A DNA stretch of 8,467 bases from a virus (Duplodnaviria > Heunggongvirae > Uroviricota > Caudoviricetes): the IMG/VR virus record IMGVR_UViG_2711768013_000004; one strand, written 5' to 3'. Positions within the stretch are counted from its first letter, which is position 1, and the number at the start of each line of letters is the position of its first letter. A program made the position numbers. Below are positions 6,001 to 8,467 of this stretch, piece after piece.

Positions 6001-8467
6001 ACTGCTCAATGCGCCAGCGGCTGATCACCTCCTGCTCCGGATCGGCGTCACTGTTTCCGTTGACGAAGTTCACCGCATCCAGAAAACGGGCGTAAACCTT
6101 ACGCCGGACCACCGTTCCGCCGACCAGACTCTGTAGATCTTCCGCCATCCCGGTGACCATACCGTACAGGTTAGAAACCATCAGCGTGGGGCGCGTACTG
6201 GTGCCTTTGCCATTCAGTTCAAAACCACTCCCCTGAATGGGATACGGCTGATACTGTCGCCCCTGCCAGGTGACCGGCTCACCTTTTTCGTTCTGCTCAT
6301 TACAGAAAAAATAACGTTCTCCACCGACCTCTGTCAGGTCGATTTCCCAGAGCACCACGCTGGCAGACTGCTCCGCACGGGTGCATTCATTCAGTGTTTC
6401 CTGTCGGATATCCTGCATCAGTTCACCACCTGTTCAAACTCTGCGCTGAACTCAACACGCAGCATACTGACCCGCGACGACCATTTTGCGCAGGTCACCT
6501 TTATCTGCCGCCACTCATAAGGCGGCGTCCACAGAAAGGCTTTCCAGCCCCCGTGCTCTTCCAGAAACGACTCCAGTACCATGGCCTCCTCACGGGGGAC
6601 AGAAAGCGTCACGCTGTACGTTTTCAGGTTGGCATTCAGCCCGGCAGGCGCTCGCTGGGAATAGCCATCACCAAAGCGCACCTTTCTTACAGAAGGGGCC
6701 GAAGCCACATCCATACCGGGTTTCACTTTCCAGCGGAAGGTTTTCATCGTCCACCTCCGGAGAACAGGCCACCATCACGCATCTGTGTCTGAATTTCATC
6801 ACGGGCACCCTTGCGGGCCATGTCATACACGGCCTTCATCATCTGTGGACCTGGCAGACCATTCGTACCGTCGTTCTGAATCACCACGTGATTGTTCTGA
6901 TTAAAATTAATGCCTTCAGCCCGCCGCATCTGCGCCGGACTTCCGGCNNNNNNNNNNNNNNNNNNNNNNNNNNNNNNNNNNNNNNNNNNNNNNNNNNNNN
7001 NNNNNNNNNNNNNNNNNNNNNNNNNNNNNNNNNNNNNNNNNNNNNNNNNNNNNNNNNNNNNNNNNNNNNNNNNNNNNNNNNNNNNNNNNNNNNNNNNNNN
7101 NNNNNNNNNNNNNNNNNNNNNNNNNNNNNNNNNNNNNNNNNNNNNNNNNNNNNNNNNNNNNNNNNNNNNNNNNNNNNNNNNNNNNNNCCCCCGCCAATGG
7201 CGCTGCCGATACTCCCGACAATCCCCACCATTGCCTGCTTAAGCAGAATTTCTGTCATCATGGACAGCACGGAGCGGGTGAAGCTGCGCCAGTTCTGTTC
7301 ACTGCCGGTCAGCATCGCCGCCATATTCTGTGCAATACCATCAAAGGTCTGCGTGGCTGCACTTTTAACCTGTGACATACTGTCCGTGGCGCTCTCTTCC
7401 CACTCACTCCAGCCGGACTTCAGGCCTGCCATCCAGCTCCCGCGAAGCTGGTCTTCAGCCGCCCAGGTCTTTTTCTGCTCTGACATGACGTTATTCAGCG
7501 CCAGAGGATTATCGCCATACTGTTCCTTCAGGCGCTGTTCCGTGGCTTCCCGCGCTGCCTGCCGGTCAGTCAGCCCCCGGTTTTTCGCATCAATGGCTGC
7601 CCGTTTTGCCCGTTGCTGCTGTGCGAATTTATCCGCCTGCTGCGCCAGCGCATTCAGGTGCTCCTGATACGTAACCTTGTCACCAAGTGCAGCCAGCTGG
7701 CGTTTGTACTCCAGCGTCCGGAGTTCTGCCTGAAGCGTCAGCAGGGCCGCATGAGCACTGTCTTCCTGACGATCGCCCGCATACACCTTCACGCCGGACT
7801 GTTTCGGCTTTTTCAGCGTCGCTTCATAATCCTTTTNNNNNNNNNNNNNNNNNNNNNAGCTGGCGACGTTGTGCCGCCTCCTCCAGTACCGCGAACTGAC
7901 TTTCTGCCTTCCACAAATCCCGGCGCTGCTGGCTGATTTTCTCATTCGCTCCGGCATGCTTCTCCAGCGTCCGGAGTTCTGCCTGAAGCGTCAGCAGGGC
8001 CGCATGAGCACTGTCTTCCTGACGATCGCCCGCATACACCTTCACGCCGGACTGTTTCGGCTTTTTCAGCGTCGCTTCATAATCCTTTTTCGCCGCCGCC
8101 ATCAGCGTGTTGTAATCCGCCTGCAGGATTTTCCCGTCTTTCAGTGCCTTGTTCAGTTCTTCCTGACGGGCGGTATATTTCTCCAGCGGCGTCTGCAGCC
8201 GTTCGTAAGCCTTCTGCGCCTCTTCGGTATATTTCAGCCGTGACGCTTCGGTATCGCTCTGCTGCTGCGCATTTTTGTCCTGTTGACGCTGTTGATCTAC
8301 CCTCTTTTGGGCTGCATCCCGCTCCAGGCGTTTTTTTTCACGATCATCCCAGTAACGCGCCCGTGCTTCATCGTTAACGAAATAATCATCCTTGCGCAGA
8401 TTCCAGATGTCGTCTGCTTTCTTAAACGCAGCCTCTGCCTTAATCAGCATCTCCTGCGCGGTATCAG

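What the first reader, a model, noticed from the sequence alone, without database searches (positions are those of the whole stretch)
7709..8089. Perfect 128-bp direct repeat in the tape-measure gene, with one copy ending exactly at a 21-N gap
Positions 7709..7836 and 7962..8089 are identical and encode the same 42 aa (KDYEATLKKPKQSGVKVYAGDRQEDSAHAALLTLQAELRTLE). Copy 2 is in the lambda-like context. Copy 1 replaces the short segment that follows ...EEAAQRRQ and precedes TLEYKRQ in lambda as I recall it, and it touches the gap. Either this is a genuine internal duplication of about 40 residues, which would lengthen the tail because tape-measure length sets tail length, or, more likely, it is an unmerged contig overlap or scaffolding artefact.
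Basis: partly seen in the sequence, partly recalled or inferred. Interest (0 to 1): 0.5.

Follow-up and report, generated by a model that had tools for sequence, protein, structure and literature searches.

The report
False duplication beside an assembly gap
The 128-base repeat in the phage tail tape-measure gene is really in the sequence, but it is almost certainly an assembly artefact at a scaffold gap, because every independent assembly of the same Shigella sonnei prophage has one copy and an intact gene.

Summary
Positions 7709-7836 and 7962-8089 are identical, and 21 N (7837-7857) abut copy 1. The gene is lambda H (tape measure) on the minus strand, in a prophage 99.7-100% identical to one found throughout Shigella sonnei.

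The duplication is very probably not real:
- The window is a scaffold of four contigs. All three N-runs break reading frames and two mis-state the true distance (246 N for 35 nt; 240 N for 226 nt).
- The copies lie 253 nt apart (1 mod 3), so H is closed in every frame as written.
- All 24 fetched S. sonnei-type loci, including complete genomes, have one copy, followed by 39 nt that the window lacks.
- Swapping 7719-7857 for those 39 nt gives an open frame identical to S. sonnei Ss046 H residues 319-710.
- The only visible new junction (copy 1 to YKRQ) is a deletion-type join at a 10-nt microhomology (GACGCTGGAG, removing 153 nt or 51 codons). It is not a duplication junction. I found it in none of 5,426 E. 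coli genomes, the phage collection, three contig collections or 200 fetched loci.

It is not a simple unmerged overlap, because 104 nt follow copy 2 that do not follow copy 1. Interest is low.

The parts
7962..8089 (-). Repeat copy 2. This is the genuine copy: last 2 nt of codon K444 plus codons K445-E486 of the tape-measure gene H, in its normal context.
   Evidence: 100% identical to, and collinear with, all 24 S. sonnei-type loci. It is followed directly by the M segment as in every reference.
7858..7961 (-). Segment M: H codons K487-Q520 plus the first 2 nt of L521 (KHAGANEKISQQRRDLWKAESQFAVLEEAAQRRQ). It forms the end of the upstream contig.
   Evidence: Collinear with the references. The contig stops at ...CGCCAGCT, and the next 39 reference bases are missing from the window.
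7837..7857 (.). Scaffold gap of 21 N. Its length is not meaningful.
   Evidence: With 21 N the two sides are out of frame. The other two N-runs in the window also mis-state the true distance.
7719..7836 (-). The misplaced part of repeat copy 1: 118 nt of H codons 445-483 attached to the start of the downstream contig. It is a false duplicate of 7972-8089.
   Evidence: It aligns only to the single R block of the references, 143 nt upstream of where it sits here. No reference or fetched locus has it twice.
7709..7718 (-). 10-nt microhomology GACGCTGGAG (minus strand). It ends both the R block (R-T-L-E486) and the missing T segment (E-T-L-E537), and it is the point of the chimeric join.
   Evidence: The alignments of the downstream contig to the references run through 7718.
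7188..7708 (-). Segment Q: H codons Y538-G710. This is the genuine body of the downstream contig.
   Evidence: 7189-7718 is 100% identical to the S. sonnei loci. PF09718 Tape_meas_lam_C matches at E=4e-22.
6948..7187 (.). Second scaffold gap inside H: 240 N where the references have 226 nt.
   Evidence: The H frame shifts across it.
2800..3045 (.). Scaffold gap inside gene J: 246 N where the references have 35 nt.
   Evidence: The J reading frame differs by 1 on the two sides.

Best explanation
Copy 1 (7709-7836) is a false duplication produced when a fragmented short-read assembly was scaffolded. It is not part of the genome at that place.

The real gene most likely reads P - R(445-486) - M(487-521) - T(39 nt, SAQEKSLLAHKD) - Q(538...). 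That is a normal 853-residue lambda-type H, as in every other assembly of this Shigella sonnei prophage.

Shown:
- The window is four contigs joined by N-runs of unreliable length.
- The contig that starts at 7836 begins with 118 nt of R fused to Q through a 10-nt microhomology.
- The upstream contig already contains R and continues correctly into M.

Inferred: the reads contained one or more molecules joining R directly to Q, either a chimeric read or library molecule, or a minor deletion allele. The true M-T-Q path was not assembled, leaving a 39-nt hole like the 35-nt and 226-nt holes elsewhere in the window. The R-Q path therefore became the start of the downstream contig. The scaffolder then placed that contig after the upstream one with a nominal gap, so the R block is written twice.

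The 128-nt length may simply be the overlap that de Bruijn-graph contigs share at a branch point (K+1 for K=127, or K-1 for K=129). This is a lead, not a test.
For: 1. Lineage controls. The truncated Lom protein encoded at 80-562 is found exactly in 1,212 blocks of the assembly collection, including S. sonnei Ss046 (CP000038.1) and 53G (HE616528.1). The window is 99.7-100% identical to these loci. All 24 S. sonnei-type loci have exactly one R, with M starting 128 nt and Q 281 nt after the start of R. H is an 853-aa product in most of them.
2. Replacing 7719-7857 with the 39 reference bases gives an open 392-codon frame with 0 mismatches to Ss046 H residues 319-710. As written, every frame has at least 9 stops, and the copy spacing is 253 nt, or 1 mod 3.
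3. The R-Q junction is absent everywhere else I looked. The 38-mer gives no match in 5,426 complete E. coli genomes. In phages the listed hits (30 of 147 matching records) are all two-piece matches in the normal arrangement. The 24-mer is absent from viral, genome and metagenome contig collections. It is absent, allowing up to 3 substitutions, from 200 fetched loci, of which 53 carry R once and none twice. No protein with RTLEYKRQ turned up in the 5.8-billion-protein search; the eight sequences I read all had RTLEKHAG...ETLEYKRQ wherever they covered the site.
4. The scaffold is poor. It has three N-runs in 8.4 kb: 246 N for 35 nt and 240 N for 226 nt, each breaking a frame.
5. Identical copies separated by an assembly gap are a published hallmark of false duplications (PMC9516828).
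Against: No reads are available, so the artefact is inferred from comparison and not seen directly.

A 10-nt microhomology is too short for a graph-based false join at any usual k. Molecules or reads with an R-Q join must therefore have existed in the data, and their origin (chimera or real minor allele) is unknown.

The window is not strictly identical to the reference lineage: it has 16 clustered differences. A strain-specific event therefore cannot be excluded by comparison alone. An N-run of 20 or 23 instead of 21 would put both copies in one frame.

Whole S. sonnei genomes could not be scanned at the DNA level. A second H paralogue carrying the junction is excluded only indirectly.
Confidence: 0.88

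Rival explanations
1. The sample really contained two H alleles: the full-length gene and an in-frame deletion of codons 487-537 (153 nt), formed by slippage or recombination between the two GACGCTGGAG 10-mers. The assembler kept both branches and the scaffolder wrote them one after the other. The duplication is still false, but the R-Q junction is biological and not a chimeric read. This reading is nested within the main explanation.
For: The junction has exactly the form expected of a deletion between short direct repeats, and it removes a whole number of codons. Junction sequence extends 118 nt into R and over 500 nt into Q with no mismatch to the lineage. The clustered allele patches elsewhere in the window hint at more than one lambdoid template in the data.
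Against: I found no such allele in any searched genome, phage, metagenome contig or protein set. A spontaneous deletion would rarely reach visible frequency in a clonal isolate. It also does not explain why the true M-T-Q path failed to assemble.
Confidence: 0.2
2. This strain has a genuine rearrangement. A second copy of H codons 445-486 has replaced codons 522-533, giving a tape measure roughly 30-35 residues longer and, if the phage were functional, a tail about 5 nm longer.
For: The copies are perfect, which fits a very recent event as well as an artefact. A gap of 20 or 23 nt would keep the frame. Tape-measure length does set tail length, at about 0.15 nm per residue (PMC5099701; Katsura and Hendrix 1984 as cited there).
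Against: It needs two separate template switches. The visible junction is of the deletion type, not the duplication type. The second junction is hidden exactly by the gap. The frame is broken as written. None of the 24 S. sonnei-type loci and none of the 53 R-bearing loci has two copies. The scaffold's other gaps are demonstrably unreliable.
Confidence: 0.06
3. Two contigs simply overlap by 128 nt and were left unmerged. Collapsing the overlap would restore the gene.
For: One copy touches the gap and the copies are identical.
Against: The upstream contig does not end with the repeat. It continues 104 nt beyond it (7961-7858) with sequence that differs from what follows copy 1. Merging on the repeat would delete codons 487-537, giving an allele I found in no searched collection.
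Confidence: 0.02

Closest known systems
False duplications flanking assembly gaps (Kelley and Salzberg 2010; Ko et al. 2022, PMC9516828)
   Same: There are two identical copies on one scaffold, separated by an assembly gap, with one copy at a contig end. The duplication is absent from better assemblies of the same sequence and corrupts the gene model.
   Different: That work describes diploid vertebrate genomes, where haplotype divergence is the main cause. This is a haploid bacterial prophage, and the extra copy is tied to a deletion-type chimeric junction at a 10-nt microhomology. Read-depth and read-pair criteria could not be applied.
Lambda gpH tail tape-measure protein (853 aa; Pfam PF06791 TMP_2 + PF09718 Tape_meas_lam_C)
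   Same: The gene holding the repeat is H. After repair it is identical to S. sonnei Ss046 H residues 319-710, and the region is about 97-98% identical at the DNA level to the best lambda-like phage H genes. The gene order H-M-L-K-I-J-lom is the same.
   Different: Nothing biologically different is demonstrated. The apparent extra 42 residues are not supported.
Engineered or natural length variants of tape-measure proteins (lambda H deletions, Katsura and Hendrix; TP901-1 TMP deletions and duplications, PMC5099701)
   Same: If either the duplication or the 51-codon deletion were real, it would be an in-frame length change in the helical middle part of the ruler. In those systems such changes alter tail length proportionally.
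   Different: No evidence here that such a protein exists. No other searched sequence carries either variant.

Membership tests
Lambda-type tape-measure protein gpH | Sequence homology to H, including the C-terminal lambda tape-measure domain | tested here: met
   PF09718 matches at E=4e-22 on the product of 7189-7836. The repaired 392-aa frame is identical to Ss046 H residues 319-710. Homologous 853-aa products carry PF06791 and PF09718. Phage records annotate the match as tail length tape-measure protein H.
Lambda-type tape-measure protein gpH | Position in the tail gene cluster: after G/T and before M, L, K, I, J | tested here: met
   ORFs for M (6418-6747), L (5720-6418), K (4971-5714), I (4402-5073), J and lom follow on the minus strand. 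They are collinear with PhiR26_1 and with E. coli MSI001. G and T lie outside the window but are present in the lineage loci.
Genuine internal duplication in a tape-measure gene | Both copies and both new junctions lie in uninterrupted sequence | tested here: not met
   A 21-N gap separates the copies and hides one junction.
Genuine internal duplication in a tape-measure gene | Reading frame preserved through both copies | tested here: not met
   The spacing is 253 nt, or 1 mod 3, and all frames have at least 9 stops as written. Because the gap length is only an estimate, this is weak on its own.
Genuine internal duplication in a tape-measure gene | Junction of the duplication type (end of the unit joined to the start of the unit) | tested here: not met
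   The visible junction joins the end of R to Q. This is the deletion product of the 10-nt repeats.
Genuine internal duplication in a tape-measure gene | Seen in independent assemblies of the same or related phages | tested here: not met
   None of the 24 S. sonnei-type loci and none of the 53 R-bearing loci has two copies. The junction was not found in E. coli genomes, phages or contig collections.
False duplication at an assembly gap | Identical copies separated by a scaffold gap, with one copy at a contig end | tested here: met
False duplication at an assembly gap | Absent from contiguous assemblies of the same sequence, and removal restores the gene | tested here: met
False duplication at an assembly gap | Single-copy read depth over the duplicated block and discordant read pairs | not testable with these tools
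   No reads are available, and the source record of the window was not found.

The most novel reading that the evidence does not exclude
The strain really carries a rearranged H gene in which codons 445-486 are present twice, the second copy replacing codons 522-533. That would be a natural ruler about 30-35 residues longer than in every other member of this prophage lineage. A weaker version is that the sample holds a natural 51-codon in-frame deletion allele of H, formed between 10-nt direct repeats.
Probability: 0.06. Interest if true: 0.3.

Novelty: not a real feature. Interest (0 to 1): 0.07.

Why it matters
It matters mainly as a warning. Taken at face value, the scaffold would yield a frameshifted or elongated tape-measure gene, and possibly a claim of tail-length variation. 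The correct reading is an ordinary 853-residue H in a widespread S. sonnei lambda-like prophage. The case also shows that a repeat touching an N-run is not always a mergeable overlap. Here, merging would have created a false 51-codon deletion.

Tried and rejected
- Simple contig overlap. Rejected because the 104 nt after copy 2 differ from the sequence after copy 1.
- Tandem duplication via the 10-mer. Rejected because the junction is of the deletion type.
- Looking for the R-Q junction as a natural allele. I searched complete E. coli genomes, phages, IMG/VR, GTDB species genomes, metagenome contigs and the protein collection, and found nothing. The E. coli set excludes Shigella, so the S. sonnei controls came from exact-protein look-ups instead.
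- Asking whether the lom junction (77-nt deletion) was a second chimeric artefact. It is not: it is a genuine lineage marker, present in 1,212 blocks.
- Asking whether the outer boundary of copy 1, which falls inside an A5 run, coincides with a homopolymer length polymorphism that could make R a graph edge bounded by two branch points. All 27 loci checked have A5, so there is no support.
- Trying to find the source record, or a closer relative, using a 27-mer that carries three of the window's private SNPs. It matched 108 viral loci, 62 metagenome loci and one E. ruysiae locus, but none is closer to the window than S. sonnei and none has N-runs.
- Explaining the 128-nt length by k-mer size (127+1 or 129-1), and the exact 100-nt excess over the references. 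These could not be tested and are offered only as leads.

Full report
**Observation.** The window carries a perfect 128-nt direct repeat, 7709-7836 and 7962-8089. It is the only long repeat in the 8,467 bases. A run of 21 N (7837-7857) starts immediately after copy 1. Tandem Repeats Finder reports nothing, as expected for two copies 253 nt apart. The window also holds two more N-runs, 2800-3045 (246 N) and 6948-7187 (240 N).

**What the region is.** All genes lie on the minus strand. The window is collinear with the tail module of lambda-like phages, in the order lom, J, I, K, L, M, H. The repeat lies in H, the tail tape-measure gene. The product of 7189-7836 matches Pfam Tape_meas_lam_C at E=4e-22.

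In gene direction the layout has five parts:
- P (upstream H)
- R, which is copy 2 (8089..7962), covering H residues 445-486
- M (7961..7858), KHAG...QRRQ(L), residues 487-521
- 21 N, followed by R again as copy 1 (7836..7709)
- Q (7708 downward), YKRQLAALG..., from residue 538

Every reference has P-R-M-T-Q. T is 39 nt encoding (L)SAQEKSLLAHKD(E) and is followed by GACGCTGGAG. The same 10-mer ends R.

**Lineage.** The best complete E. coli genome is only 96.6% identical. The window's lom, however, carries a 77-nt deletion at a CGCCAG microhomology, which truncates Lom to 160 aa. That exact protein occurs in 1,212 blocks of the assembly collection, including Shigella sonnei Ss046 (CP000038.1) and 53G (HE616528.1). 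The window is 99.7-100% identical to those loci: contig 7189-7718 has 0 mismatches and R has 0 mismatches. Further look-ups with the M and L proteins brought the number of S. sonnei-type loci to 24, from complete and draft genomes.

**Tests of the duplication.**
1. All 24 S. sonnei-type loci contain R exactly once, with M starting 128 nt and Q 281 nt after the start of R. That is the R-M-T-Q order. H is called as an 853-aa product in most of them.
None carries it twice, and none contains the R-Q junction allowing up to 3 substitutions.
3. The junction 38-mer has no match in 5,426 complete E. coli genomes. In the phage collection the listed hits (30 of 147 matching records) are all two-piece matches with the normal spacing. 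The junction 24-mer is absent from IMG/VR, from one genome per GTDB species and from the metagenome contigs.
4. A search of 5.8 billion proteins with an 87-aa peptide spanning the junction returned 32 proteins at E <= 1e-10. The eight I read all had the normal RTLEKHAG...ETLEYKRQ wherever they covered the site.
5. The two copies are 253 nt apart, which is 1 mod 3. As written, every frame across 7188-8467 has at least 9 stops. Replacing 7719-7857 with the 39 reference bases yields an open 392-codon frame identical to Ss046 H residues 319-710.

**Quality of the scaffold.** The 246-N run in J stands for 35 nt in every reference, and the 240-N run in H stands for 226 nt. Both shift the reading frame. 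The N-runs are therefore scaffolder estimates between four separate contigs, and the '21' carries no information. Copies separated by an assembly gap are a published characteristic of false duplications (PMC9516828).

**Why it is not a plain overlap, and what the junction means.** The upstream contig does not end in R. It continues correctly for 104 nt into M. The downstream contig starts with R and passes directly into Q. The two contigs therefore diverge after R and cannot be merged on the repeat.

The R-Q join falls on the 10-nt microhomology shared by the end of R and the end of T. It removes exactly 153 nt, or 51 codons (487-537). That is what a deletion between short direct repeats looks like. 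A tandem duplication through the same repeats would instead create a KDETLE|KHAG junction.

Ten bases are too few for a false join in an assembly graph. Reads or molecules with this join must therefore have been in the data. They could be chimeric library molecules or reads, or a minor true deletion allele; I cannot tell which. My inference runs as follows:
- The true M-T-Q path failed to assemble, leaving a 39-nt hole comparable to the 35-nt and 226-nt holes elsewhere.
- The R-Q path therefore became the start of the downstream contig.
- The scaffolder then set the two contigs in series, so R is written twice.

The length 128 equals K+1 for K=127 or K-1 for K=129, which would fit a graph-branch overlap. 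This is only a lead. I checked whether the outer boundary, inside an A5 run, coincides with a homopolymer polymorphism; it does not in any of the 27 loci checked.

**Rivals.**
- A real rearrangement (second R replacing codons 522-533) needs two template switches and has its second junction hidden exactly by the gap. It is also seen nowhere else. I give it about 0.06.
- A real 51-codon deletion allele coexisting with the full-length gene is compatible with the false duplication and gets about 0.2. It would matter little, because the principle that tape-measure length sets tail length at about 0.15 nm per residue is long established (PMC5099701, citing Katsura and Hendrix 1984).
- A simple unmerged overlap is refuted by the sequence.

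**Verdict.** The feature is an assembly or scaffolding artefact (confidence about 0.88). The underlying gene is an ordinary lambda-type H in a common S. sonnei prophage. Reads or PCR across the region would settle it.

Noticed in passing
window 80-562 (minus strand); junction at 86-91: lom carries a 77-nt deletion between two CGCCAG hexamers. This shifts the frame and truncates Lom to 160 aa instead of 199. It is absent from complete E. coli genomes, but the exact 160-aa protein is in 1,212 assembly blocks, including S. sonnei Ss046 and 53G. It is therefore a genuine marker of this S. sonnei prophage lineage, not an artefact.
   Followed up: yes
window 2800-3045: A 246-N run inside gene J stands for only 35 nt in all references and puts the two halves of J in different frames. 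As written, the scaffold gives a false 211-nt expansion of J.
   Followed up: yes
window 6948-7188: A 240-N run in the C-terminal part of H stands for 226 nt in the references and shifts the frame. The first base after the gap (7188) does not align to any reference, which suggests a contig-end error.
   Followed up: partly
window 798; 2637-2663; 4102-4178; 5667-5837; 6338-6404; 8118-8133: The window has 16 differences from the otherwise invariant S. sonnei prophage, mostly in tight clusters. Six carry the allele of E. coli MSI001. A 27-mer holding three of them occurs in 108 viral loci, 62 metagenome loci and an Escherichia ruysiae genome. This suggests either small recombination patches from other lambdoid prophages, or cross-talk between co-resident prophages or strains during assembly.
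   Followed up: partly
window 7858-7866 and 7692-7700 (minus strand CGCCAGCTG): The upstream contig ends inside a second short direct repeat. CGCCAGCT(G), encoding RQL at the end of M, recurs 63 nt (21 codons) downstream in the references, in the KRQL of Q. I do not know whether this contributed to the break.
   Followed up: no
window 7500-8300 versus the references: Across the repeat region the window is exactly 100 nt longer than the references: 149 nt (21 N + 128) where they have 49 nt. This may be coincidence, or a hint about read length or a scaffolder setting.
   Followed up: no
L008/L016/L023 (AKNC01000068.1), L018 (CP026802.1), L021, L004/L009/L015/L022, L012: In several S. sonnei assemblies H is called as two or three ORFs, for example 373 + 414 aa or 447 + 414 aa, and small indels show in the alignments. 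These could be frameshifts from prophage decay or homopolymer errors in long-read assemblies. None involves a second R copy, and the A5 run before R is intact in all.
   Followed up: partly
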